DNA of 64,000 bases. Source: Escherichia phage vB_EcoM_ESCO8. The position numbers and the translations under genes are program-made. This document shows positions 9,086 to 49,002 of the stretch, in pieces. The notes under the pieces are model-generated. The model was not told the DNA's origin. It was given only the letters and a program-made list of their open reading frames with translations, and made no database searches. Positions within the stretch are counted from its first letter, which is position 1. Each line of letters opens with the position of its first letter. The DNA lies in the sequence record OM386653.1. One strand, given 5' to 3'.

Positions 9086-9167
9086 TGGCCGGGGTGACAG
9101 GATTCGAACCTGCATACTCCAATTACTCGGTTAACGCCTGATTAGAAGTCAGGTGAGATACACCCCG
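9086..9167 (-). tRNA. Atypical tRNA-like gene (UCU-type anticodon hairpin, no canonical D arm)
   Basis: Perfect 7-bp acceptor and canonical T-arm TTCGAAT; internal hairpin CCTGA-CTTCTAA-TCAGG. Confidence 0.35.
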
Positions 9168-9178
9168 TTTTCATAACG

Positions 9179-9208
9179 ACTATAACAAAAAAACTAAGTA
9201 AATGTCAA
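9179..9208 (-). promoter_or_regulatory. Sigma70-like promoter candidate for tRNA array (TTGACA-N18-TATAGT)
   Basis: Read on reverse complement; -10 ends ~12 nt upstream of the first tRNA-like gene. Confidence 0.35.
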
Positions 9209-9224
9209 GACATTTTTTAGGTGT

Positions 9225-9310
9225 TGGTGCAAGTGGAGGGATTCGAACCCTCAATCATTTAAGCGTTGCGTTTTAAGCACAATGTGTATCACCAATTCCA
9301 CCACACTTGC
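9225..9310 (-). tRNA. tRNA-Leu(UAA), type II
   Basis: Perfect acceptor, T-loop TTCGAAT, anticodon loop CTTAAAA. Confidence 0.6.
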
Positions 9311-9341
9311 ATATAGGAGATGCATAGCACCTCCTTTTAAA

Positions 9342-9417
9342 TGGTGGTTCCCCAGGGTTACAATCCCTGCCCTCGACACTTATGAGGTGTGCGCTCTCGT
9401 CAGTGAGCTATGGAACC
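9342..9417 (-). tRNA. tRNA with CAU anticodon, non-canonical T-loop
   Basis: D-arm GCTC/GAGC, anticodon loop CTCATAA, T-loop ATTGTAA. Confidence 0.45.
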
Positions 9418-9691: not shown

Positions 9692-9746
9692 AGTTTTCTC
9701 CTTTTGTTTAACTTGTGCTTATCTTAGCAAATAACTAGCTATGTTG

Positions 9747-9857
9747 TCAACTAGTTTTTACAATATTTTTTCTTGATCTGTAACCTAGTGTATAACCACA
9801 TACAAAAGATACAATAGCAATAAAAACAGATAAGCCAAAAATAATTTCTGTAGACAT
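9747..9857 (-). CDS. Small membrane protein (36 aa, one TM helix)
   Basis: Hand translation MSTEIIFGLSVFIAIVSFVCGYTLGYRSRKNIVKTS; AAGGA RBS. Confidence 0.35.
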   Translation of the reverse strand: MSTEIIFGLSVFIAIVSFVCGYTLGYRSRKNIVKTS

Positions 9858-9870
9858 ACTGTTTCCTTAA

Positions 9871-10092
9871 TTATGTGAAATCTAATTCCTCCTCTGGTGC
9901 TGTGTAATTTAGAAGAAGATCAGTTACACTTTGATGTTGATAAACCCTTTCGGGACTGTCGTCGAATGCCAAACTTGTACAAATCGAGCATAGATCCGAC
10001 TCTTGAATATTACCATTCCTGTCTCTACGGGAATGATTAGTCAAGTGTCTGTTACAGGCTCGGCAACGAAAATAAAAATTATGTTGTTTCAT
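9871..10092 (-). CDS. Small zinc-ribbon-like protein (CxxC...CxxC)
   Basis: ORF track; Cys pairs; GAAGGA RBS. Confidence 0.5.
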   Translation of the reverse strand: MKQHNFYFRCRACNRHLTNHSRRDRNGNIQESDLCSICTSLAFDDSPERVYQHQSVTDLLLNYTAPEEELDFT

Positions 10093-10163
10093 AAATCCTT
10101 CGTGAAGCCCATCCAGGGCAGTTGCAGGCTCTCCTTACCTTAATCTTATCACGAAGTTTTTAT

Positions 10164-11897
10164 TTAGTCAACCTGGATGGTTCCCATAGTACGAAGAACC
10201 TCTACATCAACACGGTTACGGATATCAGTAAATGTTTCATCACGTCCTTCTACTTGTGGTGTAATAACCGTACCATCTCTGAAGATAACTTGTAACTCAT
10301 TGTCTTCATCTTGGATATCTTTAAAAGAAAGATTATCCACAAGAGAAAGTTTACCATTTGTATCCTTAACAACCTTAATAAAACCTTTTGCAGAGCGTTT
10401 ACCAGGGTCAGTTTTAGGCTCTTTACTTACCAAAATTTCGTGTTCACCGATGATACTACCTGTTGCTTTAACAGCAAAACCAAAAGTATCTCGTGTATTG
10501 AACTGATAAGTATAACTACCAACACCAAATACAATATTGGAAGCTGCAAAACCTTTCTTCTTCAGTCGGCGTAAGATCTCGTGTTCTCGTTCAACAGTAA
10601 TAGAATCACCATAAATCATACCGATGTGCTGATCAAGAACCTTGTAGCCTTTTCGGTTGATAGTACCACCAAACACTTCCCAAAGGATTTGAATAGAACC
10701 TACTGCTTCACAATAAGGAATCTCATAAGTTTCATCAATACAATCAGCAACACTGCAATCCTGAAGAACATTGTAATACTTATTAACATCAGCCAAATGA
10801 ACTACTTCAGTGGCTGTAGCAATACCATTATTTAAAAGGTCTTCATAGTTAGCAAAAGATTCAACATTGTATCCTGCAACAACTTTAACCGGATCTCCTG
10901 AATCTGGACGAATAACAAGACGACCATTTCGTGACATAATGGATTCTTTCAATTCTACCAGAATGCGAGTCAAGACAGCCCAGTAATCATAAGAATCTGC
11001 TACATATGAACAAAAACCTTCTGGAACAATTTCTTCAATATAGCGGCGAAGAAACTCTTTCTCTGCTACATAACGAAGCCCATCAACATCATCTTTAAGA
11101 TGTGGGAAATGTTTCTTCAGATCTTCAACAATAGCTCCAATGTTAGTCGTTGCTACTGAATGTTCTGTTGCAGGAATAGAACCTGCAACAAACTGGTCAT
11201 AATCAATACCATAATAATCATGCACAGTTTCAATAGCCAGAATATTATCTGTTCCTGTGAAAGATGCCAAATGAGCGATACCACTCTTATAACCATCTTC
11301 GATATTACTTAAACCACGTAGGCTAAAATCATGACACTGGAAGTTAACGTGATCAATATTATCACACGTTGCCATCGCATATGCCATAGCAATACGCTTA
11401 TACTGAAAAGCTGCTGTAGCATTAGTCATTGTCTTCCAAGTTTCATCTGACAATAGTGTTTCCACATAGTTAGTTAACCAAAAGAATTTTTCTAAAGTAT
11501 TATGCACAGTAAACACAGGAACACCAATAGGACACAAAACACCTTCTGGCAGAGATCGAACTTCCAGCGGAAGATAACCTAAATCGTGCAATTCTCCCCA
11601 ACATTCAGCAGAAGGAGCAGAAGCACCTAATGCATTTTTAGACATACGATAAAATTTATTTACTGCTGCACTACGAGACATTTTAAAGAAGCTATCCCAC
11701 ATAGTTACAAGAGCATCAGTAACTGCTCGACGAATACCTAAAACAATTACACCACGTGCTTCACGATCTGCATAGTGTGCAAAGTTTTTATCATTACGAG
11801 GAGTTAAATTAGAGAAAATGAGTTTTGTATTTTGGTTGTACATCTGCTTGTGACCAGGCTTATACCAATCAGTAGCAAAAGGTGCAAAAATATTCAT
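10164..11897 (-). CDS. Nicotinamide phosphoribosyltransferase family protein (NAMPT/NadV-like; possibly Namat-type)
   Basis: 577 aa, NAMPT-like N-terminus and length; AAGGAGA RBS. Confidence 0.75.
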   Translation of the reverse strand: MNIFAPFATDWYKPGHKQMYNQNTKLIFSNLTPRNDKNFAHYADREARGVIVLGIRRAVTDALVTMWDSFFKMSRSAAVNKFYRMSKNALGASAPSAECWGELHDLGYLPLEVRSLPEGVLCPIGVPVFTVHNTLEKFFWLTNYVETLLSDETWKTMTNATAAFQYKRIAMAYAMATCDNIDHVNFQCHDFSLRGLSNIEDGYKSGIAHLASFTGTDNILAIETVHDYYGIDYDQFVAGSIPATEHSVATTNIGAIVEDLKKHFPHLKDDVDGLRYVAEKEFLRRYIEEIVPEGFCSYVADSYDYWAVLTRILVELKESIMSRNGRLVIRPDSGDPVKVVAGYNVESFANYEDLLNNGIATATEVVHLADVNKYYNVLQDCSVADCIDETYEIPYCEAVGSIQILWEVFGGTINRKGYKVLDQHIGMIYGDSITVEREHEILRRLKKKGFAASNIVFGVGSYTYQFNTRDTFGFAVKATGSIIGEHEILVSKEPKTDPGKRSAKGFIKVVKDTNGKLSLVDNLSFKDIQDEDNELQVIFRDGTVITPQVEGRDETFTDIRNRVDVEVLRTMGTIQVD

Positions 11898-11968
11898 AGT
11901 TATGTCTCCTTGTTTGTTAGTGTGGGAGTATCTTACTAAGCATACTCCCTATTGTCAACACTTATTAT

Positions 11969-12862
11969 TTAAAAATTCCACACGTATGGAGATACAATTT
12001 GTTGTTGCAAATCTGACTGATTCTTAACAAGAACACAGGAATCTTCTTGGATGTTATCTTCCCACACATTAAGAGAATGAATGCAGTCAAAGTGCTCACT
12101 TAACTCTTTAAGACCTTTAGAAAAGATACCGTGTGTAACATATAACTCAATCTTACCTGCGTTACGAGCACGTAGCACTTTAGCCAATTCAATAAAAGTT
12201 CTACCTCCGTCACAGATATCATCTACGATCATCAGGTTACGCTTATTGAAATCCTGTACAGAAATGTCTGTACGAACAATAGCACCTGTTGCAGTATCTC
12301 TAACCTTCTCTGCACAGAACACATCTAAAGACATTTTCTTAGATAATTTAAATATTTTCTTAAGAGCACCACCATCAGGACTAACAAGAGCAAAATTCTC
12401 CATACGTAACTTCCACTTTAAAGTTTCGTAAGCAATCTCTTCTTGAGGTATTACACAGAGTCTGTCAAACACTGCTGGAGTAACATCGCTATGTGGATCA
12501 GCAACGATAACACGTGAGAAATTTAATGAATTAATTATAGAAGCAAATGCTTTAACTCCGAATGCTTCCCCAGGTTCACACACTCTGTCTTGTCGTGCAT
12601 ATGGCACATACAGCATGAGTAAATCAACACAATATGGTTTATGATATAGCATATTGTCCAATGCATTCTTAGTCATAACCAAAGTCATCAAGTCTTTAGC
12701 AGATCTTACTTCTAAAGAGAGTAAGATTCTGTCTGTAGCATGATTGAAACCTGATAGATTCGTATCTAGTTGAACATGTTGTTCTCCACCAGAGAATGTA
12801 AAGACTTTAACGTCTACATCAGTAACATAACAGTCAACACCATGTAGAATACTAACTTTCAT
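11969..12862 (-). CDS. Ribose-phosphate pyrophosphokinase family protein (Prs-like; possibly Adps-type)
   Basis: 297 aa; VADPHS and DDICDGGRT motifs typical of PRPP synthetase; AAGGAGA RBS. Confidence 0.75.
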   Translation of the reverse strand: MKVSILHGVDCYVTDVDVKVFTFSGGEQHVQLDTNLSGFNHATDRILLSLEVRSAKDLMTLVMTKNALDNMLYHKPYCVDLLMLYVPYARQDRVCEPGEAFGVKAFASIINSLNFSRVIVADPHSDVTPAVFDRLCVIPQEEIAYETLKWKLRMENFALVSPDGGALKKIFKLSKKMSLDVFCAEKVRDTATGAIVRTDISVQDFNKRNLMIVDDICDGGRTFIELAKVLRARNAGKIELYVTHGIFSKGLKELSEHFDCIHSLNVWEDNIQEDSCVLVKNQSDLQQQIVSPYVWNF

Positions 12863-13271
12863 TGTTTATCTCCTTAGTTGAGTTAGGACTTTATGTTCTC
12901 TACTCTACATACAGATAGATCTAAAGTCAATAGATATTTATTATTTAATTAATAATAAAATTAATAAAGAATCTATTGTTAGTATAGAGTATGTATGTTA
13001 GTATTATAGACATAACATAGTGCTATATGTAGACTACTCAGTTGTCTGTTAGATCATGTATCACAAGATTAGATAACACCCCCTCGCTGCGCTCGGCGTT
13101 TTTCGGGGGTTAGGGTAGCATACTTTTTTGCGTTTGTCAACACCTTTTTGGATTATTTTTAAGTACAACCTAAACCTCCTAAAAACGATTGTAACGAGTT
13201 TTACTGTGAGGTAAGGTGATTGCATATCTTAAAGGCCATTAGCTCGTTACAGAGCCGTACAGGAGGGAATA

Positions 13272-14704: not shown

Positions 14705-14898
14705 TGTTTCTTATTTATTCAGGTAAAGCCAAATACATGCAAGGTGTAAAGCGTGTAGAAGTAGCAGATACTGTAACTATAGGAAAATCCTTTATTCTTT
14801 ATTTGTTTTATATCAATGGAGAAAGATTTGCTGTTTCTAAGAAGTTGGTAGATAATGGTAAAACTTGGAAAGAAGAGAAACAGGAAGGGGGTAGATAG
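14704..14898 (+). CDS. Hypothetical protein
   Basis: ORF track. Confidence 0.4.
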   Translation: MFLIYSGKAKYMQGVKRVEVADTVTIGKSFILYLFYINGERFAVSKKLVDNGKTWKEEKQEGGR

Positions 14899-15239
14899 TG
14901 GCTAAAATTCTTTGGTTAGACGATTTAAGAGATCCTAAAGATTATGGTTATGAGGATGCCATTTGGTTAAAATCTTTTGAGGATTGGTTATCTTTTGTTT
15001 CAGATGAAGATAATTTCAATAATATCTCAGAGATACACTTCGATAATGATCTTGGAGAAGATCAAGAAGGATATCATGCGTTCTTAGACGTAGAATGTAT
15101 GTTGTACGCGGGTGAATGGGATGCTCTTAAAACTATCTATGTTCATACATCAAATCCTTCTGCTGCTGGTAAATATATGTTAGCTAAGGAAAATTTTATT
15201 TCATCCTATGGTGTTGAAATTAAACGTGTTAACTATTAA
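14898..15239 (+). CDS. Hypothetical protein (GTG start)
   Basis: ORF track. Confidence 0.45.
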   Translation: MAKILWLDDLRDPKDYGYEDAIWLKSFEDWLSFVSDEDNFNNISEIHFDNDLGEDQEGYHAFLDVECMLYAGEWDALKTIYVHTSNPSAAGKYMLAKENFISSYGVEIKRVNY

Positions 15240-33540: not shown

Positions 33541-34526
33541 AATACTTAGTAACAGGTGGTTTAGGCTTTATTGGAAGTGCAGTAGTTCGTTTCCTGGCTA
33601 AAAATACTAAGAATGATATTTACGTTATAGATAAATGGGGTTACGCTTCAGACCCTAGAAATTTATCAGAAACACCTAATGTAAAGTTTTGTCGTGTTGA
33701 CTTGACAAATGCGCAGTTAACTGCTAAGATTGTGGCAGATGTTAATCCAGATTATATAATGCATCTTGCAGCAGAGAGTCACGTAGATAATTCAATAGCA
33801 TCACCGAGTGTTTTTATAAATTCAAATATTGTTGGAACATTTAATCTTCTAGAGGCTGTTCGTTTAATGGGAGATAAATCAAATCTTAAAATGTTCCATC
33901 ATATTTCAACAGATGAAGTGTATGGTGATATGGAAGAAGGGGATTATCCGTTTACAGAACAGAATCCTTATAAACCAAGTAGTCCATATGCTGCATCTAA
34001 AGCTGCAAGCGATCATTTGGTAAGAGCATGGCATCGTACTTATGGTATTCCGACAGTTATAACAAATTGTTCAAATAATTTTGGAGCATATCATCATCCA
34101 GAAAAACTAATACCTAAAACGATAACAAATATCTTGATGCATAAACCAATCCCTGTTTATGGCAATGGTCTTCAAGTAAGAGATTGGTTATACGTTGACG
34201 ATCACGCAGAAGCATTACACCTAGTAGTAACTAAAGGCAAATCTGGAGAAACATATAATATTGGGAGCAGAAACCCTAGAACTAATATTGATGTAATCTA
34301 TATGATTTGTGATTATATGGATGCGGTGTATCCATCTGAAACAGATGCTTGTAGCCTCATTGAAATGGTTACAGATAGACCTGGACATGATTTAAGATAC
34401 GAAGTGAATCCTTATAAGATTGAAAAGGAATTAGGGTGGAAAGCTAAAGGCATATTTGAAGAAAAACTTTATTCAACCATTGATTGGTATGTAGATAACA
34501 AAGAGTGGTGGGAAAATAAAGTTTAA
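33537..34526 (+). CDS. rfbB: dTDP-glucose 4,6-dehydratase
   Basis: N-terminal TGGLGFIGS Rossmann motif; 329 aa. Confidence 0.75.
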
Positions 34527-48189: not shown

Positions 48190-49002
48190 ATGCGAAGAGT
48201 AATTTTTGTTAGTGGCGCAGGTTTAAGTGCAGACAGTGGGATTCGAACGTTCCGAACAGACACAGATAGTGGTCGTGCCTTATGGGAAGAATATGACTTA
48301 GAAGAGGTCTGCGATATTGGAGCTTTCCAAGCAGGTTATCGTGTGAGAACATCTCCAGATCTTCCAGTGGTCGGTGGTGTAGACGAGAACGGTATGGACT
48401 TGTATGCCAAAACACACGAATTTTATAACAAAAGACGTGTTGAGCTTAAAGATGTACAACCTAATGCTGCACATATTCAAATAGCAAAGTGGTTTAAGGA
48501 ATATCCTAACCAAGTAGTAAACTTGACAACAAACGTCGATGATCTACTAGAGCGAGCAGGTGTGGACAGGGATTCTGTTATTCACGTGCACGGGTATCTC
48601 CCTGAAGTAGTTTACCGTATGCATCCTGGAGATTACAAAACACTGGTAGACATTGGTTACAATAGTATAAACATAGATGATTATAACTGGGTGAAGCCTA
48701 ATGTTGTATTTTTTGGTGAGGCTGCACCTTTGTATGCAGATATGGCTCACTTGTTTGATACTTTGACCATGCAAGATTTGGTTGTTGTAGTAGGATGTTC
48801 AAACCAAGTTATCAATTTTAATTGGGAATTATTCCCTGCACTTAATATGGGTACAAAAATGATTGTTGTTAACCCAGGAATTAATTACGAAGAAACTCTT
48901 CTTTACGAAGATAGAGGAGTCTTTGTTTACAGAGAAAAGGCAGCAGATGCTTTTAGCAATCCTGCTTTCATAAAAATGATAGAAGATCATTTGACTAAGT
49001 AA
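48190..49002 (+). CDS. Sir2-family (sirtuin-like) NAD-dependent protein, no zinc ribbon
   Basis: Motifs GAGLSADSGIRTFR, TTNVDDL, HVHG. Confidence 0.65.
   Translation: MRRVIFVSGAGLSADSGIRTFRTDTDSGRALWEEYDLEEVCDIGAFQAGYRVRTSPDLPVVGGVDENGMDLYAKTHEFYNKRRVELKDVQPNAAHIQIAKWFKEYPNQVVNLTTNVDDLLERAGVDRDSVIHVHGYLPEVVYRMHPGDYKTLVDIGYNSINIDDYNWVKPNVVFFGEAAPLYADMAHLFDTLTMQDLVVVVGCSNQVINFNWELFPALNMGTKMIVVNPGINYEETLLYEDRGVFVYREKAADAFSNPAFIKMIEDHLTK

What the first reader, a model, noticed from the sequence alone, without database searches (positions are those of the whole stretch)
10164..12862. Adjacent NAMPT-like and PRPP-synthetase-like genes: candidate NAD+ reconstitution counter-defense
A 577-aa nicotinamide phosphoribosyltransferase homolog sits next to a 297-aa ribose-phosphate pyrophosphokinase homolog (VADPHS, DDICDGGRT). 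This pairing matches the described phage NARP1 architecture (Adps plus Namat), which rebuilds NAD+ from ADP-ribose and nicotinamide after NAD+-depleting defenses. Sequence alone cannot separate this from ordinary NadV/Prs salvage.
Basis: partly seen in the sequence, partly recalled or inferred. Interest (0 to 1): 0.7.

Follow-up and report, generated by a model that had tools for sequence, protein, structure and literature searches.

The report
Known phage NAD+ rebuilding gene pair
These two adjacent genes in a phi92-like E. coli phage are a near-identical copy of the already catalogued NARP1 counter-defence pair (Adps plus Namat), which rebuilds NAD+ from ADP-ribose and nicotinamide; the call is correct but not new.

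Summary
Two minus-strand ORFs, 11969-12862 (297 aa, Prs-like) and 10164-11897 (577 aa, NAMPT-like), lie 71 bp apart in a Justusliebigvirus (phi92-like) coliphage.

The NARP1 interpretation holds on every sequence-level test I could run.
- The NAMPT-like protein matches the SPbetaL1 Namat crystal structure best and is 40% identical over its full length to the knockout-validated Bas63 Namat.
- It carries the published Namat clamp-helix signature (GSYTYQFNTRD).
- The Prs-like protein scores like validated Adps proteins and unlike E. coli Prs on three independent profiles, and keeps the catalytic lysine.
- No NMN adenylyltransferase exists in the closest complete genome, so NARP2 is excluded.

It is already known. 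The supplementary tables of Osterman et al. 2024 list the phi92 and PaulScherrer (Bas60) proteins as an Adps with a Namat within 10 genes and as an Adps-associated Namat. The window's proteins differ from Bas60's by 1 of 297 and 4 of 577 residues. I found no experiment on this genus.

Caveat: the PRPP-type Haemophilus ducreyi NadV nests inside the Namat clade, so the motif and the adjacency carry the argument, not the clade.

Side lead, outside the window: phi92-like genomes encode an unlinked Macro protein 41% identical to the validated ADPR-1''-phosphate phosphatase Adpp.

The parts
11969..12862 (-). adps: ADP-ribose pyrophosphokinase (Prs-like, 297 aa), first gene of the pair
   Evidence: ORF. 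PHROG 619 scores: window 306 bits, Bas63 Adps 333, SPbetaL1 Adps 248, E. coli Prs 193. TIGR01251 scores: window 119, Bas63 139, SPbetaL1 106, E. coli Prs 423. My own Adps HMM, built without phi92-like sequences: window 259.5 bits, E. coli Prs 122.7. It has the features [DE]PHS, KxR[DN]xxTGxI and DDICDGGRTF, and K186 corresponds to SPbetaL1 K162. It differs by 1 residue from the Bas60 protein and 2 from the phi92 protein in Osterman Table S1.
10164..11897 (-). namat: nicotinamide ADP-ribose transferase (NAMPT fold, long form, 577 aa), second gene of the pair
   Evidence: ORF. Best PDB sequence hit is 9W5X/9W5W SPbetaL1 Namat at E=7e-118, against 2e-100 for HdNadV and about 1e-48 for mammalian NAMPT. 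It is 40% identical over its full length to Bas63 Namat, E=3e-137. The clamp helix GSYTYQFNTRD is at residues 460-470; the catalytic His is in ATEHS (H246) and the catalytic Arg in IRPDSGD (R330). The AF2 model has pLDDT 90.9, and the best Foldseek hit is 9W5X at E=5e-49. It differs at 4 of 577 residues from the Bas60 protein listed as 'Adps-associated'.
12902..12930 (-). sigma-70-like promoter candidate upstream of adps (TTGACT-17-TAGAGT), in the roughly 400-bp AT-rich divergent intergenic region
   Evidence: Consensus scan only; sequence read. Not evidence of function.
12870..12875 (-). Shine-Dalgarno AAGGAG, 7 nt before the adps ATG
   Evidence: Read from the sequence.
11930..11958 (-). promoter-like element TTGACA-17-TAAGAT inside the 71-bp adps-namat gap; it overlaps an 8-bp inverted repeat (GGGAGTAT at 11942-11949, ATACTCCC at 11924-11931)
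   Evidence: The element type TTGACW-N17/18-TAAGAT occurs 4 times in the window against 0.11 expected, and 3 of the 4 lie at 9.7-12.0 kb on this strand. Function is inferred.
11906..11911 (-). Shine-Dalgarno AAGGAG, 8 nt before the namat ATG
   Evidence: Read from the sequence.

Best explanation
This is a core two-gene NARP1 module of a phi92-like (Justusliebigvirus) coliphage. Many bacterial defences (SIR2-HerA, DSR1/2, type I Thoeris, SEFIR) cleave NAD+ into ADP-ribose and nicotinamide. When that happens, the Prs-like enzyme (Adps) uses ATP to pyrophosphorylate the ribose of ADP-ribose, giving ADPR-pyrophosphate. The NAMPT-like enzyme (Namat) then joins nicotinamide to ADPR-PP and regenerates NAD+ in one step, without needing host NMN-to-NAD enzymes.

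What is shown here: homology, signature residues, gene arrangement and membership of the published catalogue. What is inferred from characterised homologues (SPbetaL1 in vitro; Bas63 and FADO by deletion): the chemistry and the anti-defence phenotype. Early expression from host-type promoters in front of each gene is inferred from consensus matches only.
For: (1) Namat side. The best PDB sequence match is the SPbetaL1 Namat crystal (E=7e-118), against about 1e-48 for mammalian NAMPT. The protein is 40% identical over its full length to the Bas63 Namat, including both long-form insertions. GSYTYQFNTRD fits the published Namat consensus GS-X-phi-X-phi-X-phi-TRD with aromatics at positions 3 and 7. 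In my sample the motif was present in 9 of 9 phage proteins with an adjacent Prs-like gene and in 0 of 5 without one, and those five carry NMNAT genes nearby or are KVP40-like. In a bootstrapped NJ tree the window protein sits in the clade with both validated Namats. 119 of the 120 closest database relatives carry the aromatic clamp helix. The AF2 model's best structural match is 9W5X.

(2) Adps side. Profile scores track the validated Adps proteins, not E. coli Prs, in PHROG 619, TIGR01251 and a non-circular HMM of my own. The three loops DPHS, K-V-R-D-x-x-T-G-x-I and DDICDGGRTF match Bas63 Adps and differ from Prs, and the catalytic Lys is conserved.

(3) Arrangement. Same strand, 71-bp gap, adps first, as in Bas63.

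(4) No NMNAT in the closest complete genome.

(5) Osterman et al. Tables S1 and S2 list the phi92 and PaulScherrer proteins as an Adps with 'Namat within 10 genes: Yes' and as an 'Adps-associated' Namat. The window proteins differ from the PaulScherrer proteins by 1 and 4 residues, and the window Adps differs from the phi92 Adps by 2.
Against: I found no biochemical or genetic test of any Justusliebigvirus NARP1 in the searchable literature.

The clamp loop is not a textbook match. After TPR the window has N-D-K37-N38-F39, so the 'fourth residue' said to stack on adenine in Lys-type loops is Asn rather than an aromatic such as Bas63's Trp; an aromatic follows one position later.

HdNadV, a PRPP-type NadV crystallised with NMN, nests inside the Namat clade in my tree. 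Clade position alone therefore does not prove ADPR-PP specificity.

Namat enzymes keep residual PRPP-dependent NMN synthesis in vitro (PMC12774641), so some classical salvage activity is not excluded.

My Adps tree had a single cellular Prs as outgroup.
Confidence: 0.87

Rival explanations
1. Ordinary nucleotide and NAD salvage. The 297-aa protein is a real PRPP synthetase and the 577-aa protein a real Nampt/NadV that makes NMN from PRPP and nicotinamide, with the host's NadR or PncC finishing NAD+ synthesis. On this view the pair is an auxiliary metabolic boost, not a defence-product recycler.
For: Generic annotation models accept both proteins: TIGR01251 at 118.8 bits against a cut-off of 113, and NCBIfam PRK09198 at 461 bits against 405. 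GenBank records call them Prs and NAMPT. Namat keeps about half of human Nampt's PRPP-dependent activity in vitro. HdNadV, a PRPP-type enzyme, is a close relative.
Against: All specific Prs equivalog and subfamily models are missed by a wide margin (50-100 bits against cut-offs of 296-536), whereas E. coli Prs scores 423-533 on the general Prs models TIGR01251 and PRK01259. SPbetaL1 Adps gave no Prs-type product in vitro, and Bas63 overcame SIR2-HerA in a pncC nadR double-deletion host. The window protein has the aromatic clamp that HdNadV and the Nampts lack. In the published analysis 97% of Adps-clade genes sit next to a Namat, while cellular prs genes almost never do.
Confidence: 0.07
2. 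NARP2-type pathway: Nampt plus a phage NMN adenylyltransferase builds NAD+ from PRPP, nicotinamide and ATP.
For: The NAMPT fold is shared, and some coliphages (for example the jumbo phage EJP2) do use this arrangement.
Against: There is no NMNAT in the window or in the 145-kb Eryne genome, either by annotation or by tblastn with three phage NMNATs (best E=0.039). The window protein lies outside the KVP40-like/NMNAT-associated clade and shares only 26-33% identity with its members. The published survey found no phage that carries both pathways.
Confidence: 0.01
3. Extended, dispersed NARP1-AP. The pair works as NARP1 but is also fed by an unlinked Macro-domain ADPR-1''-phosphate phosphatase encoded about 83 kb away in phi92-like genomes. 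That would let the phage also survive the RES-type (aRES) NAD+ phosphorylase defence.
For: Eryne CDS0066 (244 aa) has a Macro domain (31.2 bits against a cut-off of 22). It is 41% identical (E=2e-36) over the whole length of the validated Vibrio phage Gary Adpp, and 45% identical to the Macro gene two genes downstream of Namat in Pseudomonas phage TIETA. It is conserved at 95% identity or more in 54 phage records. The aRES paper scanned only two genes either side of each operon, and phi92-like phages are absent from its table.
Against: The gene lies outside this window, so I could not show that it is in the same genome. The same Macro family (T4 Tk.4-like) is common in phages without NARP1. 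It has an extra N-terminal region of about 93 residues of unknown function. No experiment exists.
Confidence: 0.35

Closest known systems
NARP1 of Escherichia phage JohannRWettstein (Bas63; genes 79-80), the genetically validated coliphage system (Osterman et al. 2024)
   Same: Same gene order (adps then namat), same strand and a short gap. Both Namats are the long form with the same two insertions (577 and 593 aa). The Adps loops DDICDGGRTF and VTHGIFSKG are identical. Both have a Lys-type clamp loop (TPR-x-D-K) and a GSYTYQ-aromatic-x-TRD clamp helix.
   Different: Only 35% (Adps) and 40% (Namat) identity. The host phage belongs to a different family-level group (Felixounavirus against Justusliebigvirus). 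The fourth clamp-loop residue is Asn, where Bas63 has Trp. The second insertion is shorter. The window version has a promoter-like element in the intergenic gap. Bas63 has been tested by deletion; this one has not.
NARP1 of Bacillus phage SPbetaL1 (Adps and Namat; PDB 9W5X and 9W5W), the biochemically and structurally characterised system
   Same: Best sequence and structure match in the PDB for the 577-aa protein (E=7e-118; Foldseek E=5e-49, TM 0.92 on the target). Catalytic His and Arg are conserved and so are both aromatic clamp-helix residues. The Adps catalytic Lys (K162) is conserved.
   Different: SPbetaL1 Namat is the short form (about 490 aa, no insertions) with an Arg-type clamp loop. 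Its Adps has DDLSSFGGTF and THAENS loops and is only about 35% identical over 176 residues.
Catalogued phi92 and PaulScherrer (Bas60) proteins (FR775895_00103/00104, MZ501100_00239/00240) in Osterman et al. Tables S1 and S2
   Same: Essentially the same proteins: 1 and 2 residue differences in Adps (Bas60 and phi92), and 4 of 577 in Namat against Bas60. The DNA is 98.9% identical.
   Different: Nothing of substance; this window is another isolate of the same genus.
Haemophilus ducreyi NadV (PDB 9KE8 and 9KEO), a PRPP-type bacterial nicotinamide phosphoribosyltransferase
   Same: Close homologue (E=2e-100, 42% identity over aligned columns), nested within the Namat clade in my tree.
   Different: It lacks the clamp aromatics (GAQTYQRNTRD) and the Lys/Arg clamp-loop residue, was crystallised with NMN, and is the short form. 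I do not know its gene neighbourhood.
NARP2 of Vibrio phage KVP40 (Nampt plus Nmnat)
   Same: Same overall purpose (restoring NAD+ during infection) and the same NAMPT fold.
   Different: Different clade (26-33% identity), a GGGLLQ-type helix instead of the clamp, partnered with NMNAT rather than Adps, and uses PRPP.

Membership tests
NARP1 (Adps + Namat) | An adps gene within 10 genes of a namat gene (the operational definition used in both papers) | tested here: met
   The genes are adjacent, on the same strand, 71 bp apart, adps upstream.
NARP1 (Adps + Namat) | The Prs-like protein belongs to the Adps clade, separate from cellular Prs | tested here: met
   PHROG 619: window 306 bits, E. coli Prs 193. 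TIGR01251: window 119, E. coli Prs 423. My own HMM without phi92-like sequences: window 259.5, E. coli Prs 122.7, leave-one-out members 131-332. It groups with Namat-adjacent proteins in an NJ tree, though with only one Prs outgroup. The near-identical phi92 and Bas60 proteins are listed in the published table of Adps homologues.
NARP1 (Adps + Namat) | The Adps catalytic lysine (SPbetaL1 K162, whose mutation inactivates the enzyme) is conserved | tested here: met
   K186 sits in an invariant alignment column. The K162A mutant is listed.
NARP1 (Adps + Namat) | Namat catalytic core: the phospho-histidine and the Arg equivalent to SPbetaL1 R306 | tested here: met
   ATEHS (H246) and IRPDSGD (R330) are conserved.
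NARP1 (Adps + Namat) | [quoted passage not shown] | tested here: met
   The window has G-S-Y-T-Y-Q-F-N-T-R-D at residues 460-470.
NARP1 (Adps + Namat) | Selectivity-clamp loop: the third residue is Arg, Lys or Tyr, with a stacking residue at that position or the next | tested here: inconclusive
   The third residue is Lys (K37) as in Bas63, but the next is Asn (N38), with Phe at position 39. The same TPRNDKNF loop occurs in 60 of the 120 closest relatives. The clamp forms across the dimer, so a monomer model cannot settle the question.
NARP1 (Adps + Namat) | Enzymology: ADPR + ATP gives ADPR-PP; ADPR-PP + nicotinamide gives NAD+, with ADPR-PP preferred over PRPP | not testable with these tools
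   Shown only for the SPbetaL1 and Paenibacillus foliorum proteins.
NARP1 (Adps + Namat) | Phenotype: rescues the phage from NAD+-depleting defence systems | not testable with these tools
   Shown for Bas63, FADO and SPbetaL1 knock-ins. I found no test of a phi92-like phage.
NARP2 (Nampt + Nmnat) | An NMN adenylyltransferase is encoded by the same phage | tested here: not met
   None in the window or in the complete Eryne genome, by annotation or tblastn (best E=0.039).
NARP2 (Nampt + Nmnat) | The NAMPT homologue falls in the KVP40-like clade | tested here: not met
   Separate clade, 26-33% identity, helix of GGGLLQ type.
NARP1-AP (NARP1 with associated Macro phosphatase Adpp) | A Macro-domain gene within two genes of the NARP1 pair | tested here: not met
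   The ten flanking ORFs have no Macro hit. An Adpp-like Macro gene exists in related genomes, but about 83 kb away and outside the window.
NARP1 with RyDEP | A RyR-domain (PF02026) gene inside or beside the operon | tested here: not met
   No RyR hit among the flanking ORFs. Positive control: mycobacteriophage Baudelaire gp81, which lies between its adps and namat genes, hits RyR at 31.5 bits.
Housekeeping ribose-phosphate diphosphokinase (Prs) | Reaches the curated NCBIfam cut-offs of the specific Prs models (equivalog, and subfamily other than TIGR01251) | tested here: not met
   Scores of 50-100 bits against cut-offs of 296-536. Only the broad TIGR01251 subfamily model is passed, at 118.8 against 113. 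E. coli Prs scores 423-533 on TIGR01251 and PRK01259.

The most novel reading that the evidence does not exclude
phi92-like phages run a dispersed version of the extended pathway NARP1-AP. An unlinked Macro-domain protein (Eryne CDS0066; 41% identical to the validated ADPR-1''-phosphate phosphatase Adpp) would convert the product of RES-type NAD+ phosphorylases into ADPR for the Adps/Namat pair in this window. The published operon-based count of NARP1-AP (15% of NARP1 phages) would then be an underestimate, and this genus would be resistant to aRES. The Macro gene lies outside the window.
Probability: 0.3. Interest if true: 0.35.

Novelty: already known. Interest (0 to 1): 0.15.

Why it matters
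As a discovery it matters little. The pathway was described in 2024, its selectivity determinants in 2026, and the near-identical phi92 and Bas60 proteins are in the original catalogue.

It has practical value. GenBank and PHROG labels ('ribose-phosphate pyrophosphokinase', 'nicotinamide phosphoribosyl transferase') hide a counter-defence system in a genus that includes therapeutic and model phages (phi92, Bas60). Knowing it is there predicts that these phages resist SIR2-, TIR- and SEFIR-type NAD+ depletion.

The analysis also gives a usable rule for telling Namat from NadV by sequence: the aromatic clamp helix plus an adjacent Adps, not clade position. And it flags a testable extension, the unlinked Adpp-like Macro protein.

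Tried and rejected
(1) NARP2. I searched the window and the whole Eryne genome for NMNAT with three phage NMNAT queries and by annotation. Nothing was found.

(2) Operon-embedded accessories (Macro/Adpp, RyR/RyDEP). Ten flanking ORFs were scanned with Pfam and none hit. The positive controls, TIETA Macro and Baudelaire RyR, worked.

(3) The idea that the 577-aa length marks an unusual Namat. Rejected: both insertions are shared with Bas63 and with Erwinia, Klebsiella and Pseudomonas phage Namats, and with all 120 closest database relatives.

(4) The idea that the 867-aa relative P0214 is an Adps-Namat fusion (Rosetta-stone evidence). Rejected: its N- and C-terminal parts are both Namat, and the extra roughly 260 residues interrupt the IRPD|SGDP motif. 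The insert looks intein-like from its boundaries (it starts with Cys and ends GN|S), but Pfam gave no intein or homing-endonuclease hit.

(5) Using clade membership alone to call a Namat. Rejected once 9KE8 proved to be H. ducreyi NadV nested in that clade.

(6) Literature search for experiments on Bas60 or phi92 against NAD+-depleting systems. None found; Bas60 appears only in CBASS and DarTG/NADAR contexts.

(7) Intrinsic terminators around the pair. None on the coding strand.
Full report
**Observation.** The two ORFs are exactly as described, both on the minus strand: 11969-12862 (297 aa) and 10164-11897 (577 aa), separated by 71 bp. The 577-aa protein hits Pfam NAPRTase (E=2.3e-37), PHROG 448 'nicotinamide phosphoribosyl transferase' (E=1e-187) and NCBIfam PRK09198 (461 bits). 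The 297-aa protein hits PHROG 619 'ribose-phosphate pyrophosphokinase' (E=2.9e-91) and, weakly, the Prs models. The quoted strings VADPHS and DDICDGGRT are present. The stretch is 98.4-99.2% identical to more than 50 genomes of phi92-like coliphages (Justusliebigvirus), including phi92 itself and BASEL phage Bas60/PaulScherrer.

**What is published.** Osterman et al. (bioRxiv 10.1101/2024.02.11.579819) described NARP1. A Prs-like enzyme, Adps, pyrophosphorylates ADP-ribose, and a NAMPT-like enzyme, Namat, joins ADPR-PP to nicotinamide to give NAD+. The pathway was validated by deletion in Bas63 and FADO and by biochemistry with the SPbetaL1 proteins. NARP2 (Nampt plus Nmnat, from KVP40) is the alternative pathway. 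Lan et al. (PMC12774641) solved SPbetaL1 Namat (PDB 9W5X, 9W5W). [quoted passage not shown]
- The supplementary tables of Osterman et al. list phi92 (FR775895_00103/00104) and PaulScherrer (MZ501100_00239/00240). The Prs-like proteins appear among 'Adps homologs' with 'Namat within 10 genes: Yes', and the NAMPT-like proteins are marked 'Adps-associated'.
- The window's Adps differs from the PaulScherrer protein at 1 of 297 residues and from the phi92 protein at 2. Its Namat differs from PaulScherrer's at 4 of 577.
- The system in this window is therefore already catalogued.

**Independent test, Namat side.**
- By sequence against the PDB, SPbetaL1 Namat is the best hit (E=7e-118). It is followed by 9KE8/9KEO (2e-100) and then mammalian NAMPT (about 1e-48).
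- Against the knockout-validated Bas63 Namat the match is full-length: 40% identity, E=3e-137.
- The catalytic His (ATEHS) and Arg (IRPDSGD, equivalent to SPbetaL1 R306) are conserved. The clamp helix reads GSYTYQFNTRD, which fits the published signature at every position.
- I fetched 11 further phage loci from both sides of the identity break seen in a tblastn survey. With Bas63, the seven loci on the high-identity side all have a Prs-like gene immediately upstream. The five on the low-identity side have none, and carry NMNAT genes nearby or are KVP40-like.
- The aromatic clamp motif was present in 9 of 9 proteins with an adjacent Adps and in 0 of 5 without one.
- A bootstrapped NJ tree puts the window protein inside the clade that holds both validated Namats, sister to a Vequintavirinae (Erwinia) phage protein.
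- 119 of the 120 closest relatives in the 5.8-billion-protein database carry the aromatic clamp helix.
- An AlphaFold2 model (pLDDT 90.9, pTM 0.90) matches 9W5X best (Foldseek E=5e-49).

**Independent test, Adps side.** Pairwise BLAST alone is not decisive: 136 bits to Bas63 Adps, 83 to SPbetaL1 Adps and 72 to E. coli Prs. Profiles are decisive.

| Protein | PHROG 619 (bits) | TIGR01251, cellular Prs (bits) |
|---|---|---|
| Window 297-aa protein | 306 | 119 |
| Bas63 Adps | 333 | 139 |
| SPbetaL1 Adps | 248 | 106 |
| E. coli Prs | 193 | 423 |

- PHROG 619 may contain phi92's own protein. I therefore built an HMM from 11 Namat-adjacent proteins with no phi92-like member. The window protein scores 259.5 bits, inside the leave-one-out range of true members (131-332). 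E. coli Prs scores 122.7.
- Three features shared by Namat-adjacent proteins and absent from E. coli Prs are all present: [DE]PHS, K-x-R-[DN]-x-x-TG-x-I and DD[IL]xxxGxTF. The lysine equivalent to SPbetaL1 K162, which the authors mutated to inactivate Adps, is invariant.

**Exclusions.**
- No NMNAT is encoded in the window or in the complete genome of the closest annotated relative (Eryne), by annotation or by tblastn with three phage NMNATs. This is not NARP2.
- None of the ten flanking ORFs is a Macro (Adpp) or RyR (RyDEP) protein, so this is the core two-gene form. Positive controls from other loci worked.
- The 577-aa length is not special. Both insertions are shared with Bas63 and with other Namats from phages of Gram-negative hosts, and are confidently folded in the model. 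They are a helical hairpin at about 246-290 and a small alpha/beta subdomain at about 343-399.

**Caveats.**
- 9KE8/9KEO is Haemophilus ducreyi NadV, crystallised with nicotinamide and with NMN, so it is a PRPP-type enzyme. In my tree it nests inside the Namat clade, yet it lacks the clamp aromatics (GAQTYQRNTRD). Clade position alone is therefore not proof of ADPR-PP specificity. The motif and the Adps partnership carry the argument, and the window has both.
- The clamp loop is TPR-N-D-K-N-F. The Lys matches the Bas63 type, but the next residue, said to stack on adenine in Lys-type loops, is Asn rather than an aromatic. Phe follows one position later. The same loop is the commonest among close relatives (60 of 120). 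Because the clamp forms across the dimer, my monomer model cannot resolve this.
- I found no experiment on any Justusliebigvirus NARP1.

**Expression (inferred only).** Each gene has an AAGGAG Shine-Dalgarno sequence. A sigma-70-like site lies upstream of adps, at 12902-12930. An element TTGACA-N17-TAAGAT lies in the intergenic gap, at 11930-11958. That element type occurs 4 times in the window against 0.11 expected by chance, and three copies sit directly in front of namat and the two small genes downstream. This fits an early region transcribed by host RNA polymerase, but it rests on consensus matches only.

**Verdict.** The finding is a correct recognition of an already catalogued counter-defence system, so interest is low. 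The most novel reading my evidence leaves open lies outside the window. phi92-like genomes encode an unlinked Macro-domain protein that is 41% identical over the full length of the validated ADPR-1''-phosphate phosphatase Adpp. It might extend this NARP1 to RES-type defences.

Noticed in passing
Related genome, not the window: Escherichia phage Eryne PQ529420 54747-55481 (L017:4747-5481, minus strand): Unlinked Macro-domain protein of 244 aa (Pfam Macro 31.2 bits). It is 41% identical (E=2e-36) to the validated Vibrio phage Gary Adpp (ADPR-1''-phosphate phosphatase of NARP1-AP) and 45% identical to the Macro gene beside Namat in Pseudomonas phage TIETA. It is conserved at 95% identity or more in 54 phage records. 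phi92-like phages are absent from the aRES paper's table, which scanned only two genes either side of each operon.
   Followed up: partly
window 48190-48999 (+): Phage-encoded SIR2-family protein of 270 aa (Pfam SIR2, 81 bits), an NAD+-using enzyme family, in the same genome as the NAD+ rebuilding pair. It is 31% identical to a Sir2 gene that lies 2.4 kb downstream of the Nampt/NMNAT genes of jumbo coliphage EJP2. Function and any link to NARP1 are unknown.
   Followed up: partly
window 14898-15239 (+), and roughly 15.7-17.7 kb downstream by correspondence with PaulScherrer locus L001: A cREC_REC 'cyclic-phosphate processing receiver' domain ORF (PF20274, 54 bits) is followed by phosphoesterase, RNA ligase and polynucleotide-kinase genes, an RNA-repair cluster 2-5 kb from the NARP1 pair. 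The same repair genes flank NARP1 in Erwinia phage pEp_SNUABM_01 and Pseudomonas phage TIETA. In Eryne the cREC_REC ORF is labelled 'nudix hydrolase', which looks like a misannotation.
   Followed up: partly
window 6630-9417 (-): An array of 16 tRNA genes starts about 750 bp downstream of namat on the same strand, interspersed with small ORFs.
   Followed up: no
window 9721-9750, 10143-10171, 11930-11958 (-) and 33702-33730 (+): Repeated promoter-like element TTGACW-N17/18-TAAGAT: 4 copies against 0.11 expected by chance. Three copies lie directly upstream of namat, the 73-aa ORF and the 88-aa ORF.
   Followed up: partly
window 11924-11949 (-): An 8-bp perfect inverted repeat (GGGAGTAT, 10 nt, ATACTCCC) in the adps-namat gap overlaps the -10 of the promoter-like element. 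No T-run follows, so it is not a classical terminator. Its role is unknown.
   Followed up: no
window 9871-10092 (-): A 73-aa ORF immediately downstream of namat has two CxxC pairs (zinc-ribbon-like; weak RecR_ZnF hit at E=0.004, below the cut-off) and its own promoter-like site. It is conserved in phi92-like phages as a hypothetical protein.
   Followed up: partly
PDB 9KE8/9KEO (no locus): Haemophilus ducreyi NadV, a PRPP-type Nampt, nests inside the phage Namat clade (sister to the SPbetaL1 and Staphylococcus phage proteins, bootstrap 100) but lacks the clamp aromatics. This suggests either a phage origin for this plasmid-borne NadV or loss of the clamp.
   Followed up: partly
database protein P0214 (867 aa, on a 92-kb metagenomic contig): A long-form Namat interrupted by an insert of about 260 aa exactly inside the catalytic IRPD|SGDP motif. 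The insert starts with Cys and ends GN|S, so it looks intein-like, but Pfam gave no intein or endonuclease hit.
   Followed up: partly
L010:3579-3989 (Mycobacterium phage Baudelaire gp81) and L007:5894-6373 (Pseudomonas phage TIETA): Examples of the two known NARP1 accessories, seen while sampling loci: a RyR-domain (RyDEP-like) gene between adps and namat in Baudelaire, and a Macro (Adpp-like) gene two genes downstream of namat in TIETA.
   Followed up: yes
database proteins P0061, P0062, P0090, P0103: Adps-like proteins 43-46% identical to the window's occur on bacterial records: two complete Geminocystis (cyanobacterium) chromosomes of 3.9-4.2 Mb, a shorter Geminocystis contig, and Thorsellia anophelis. 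This fits the published note that some NARP1 copies are chromosomal. I did not inspect the context.
   Followed up: no
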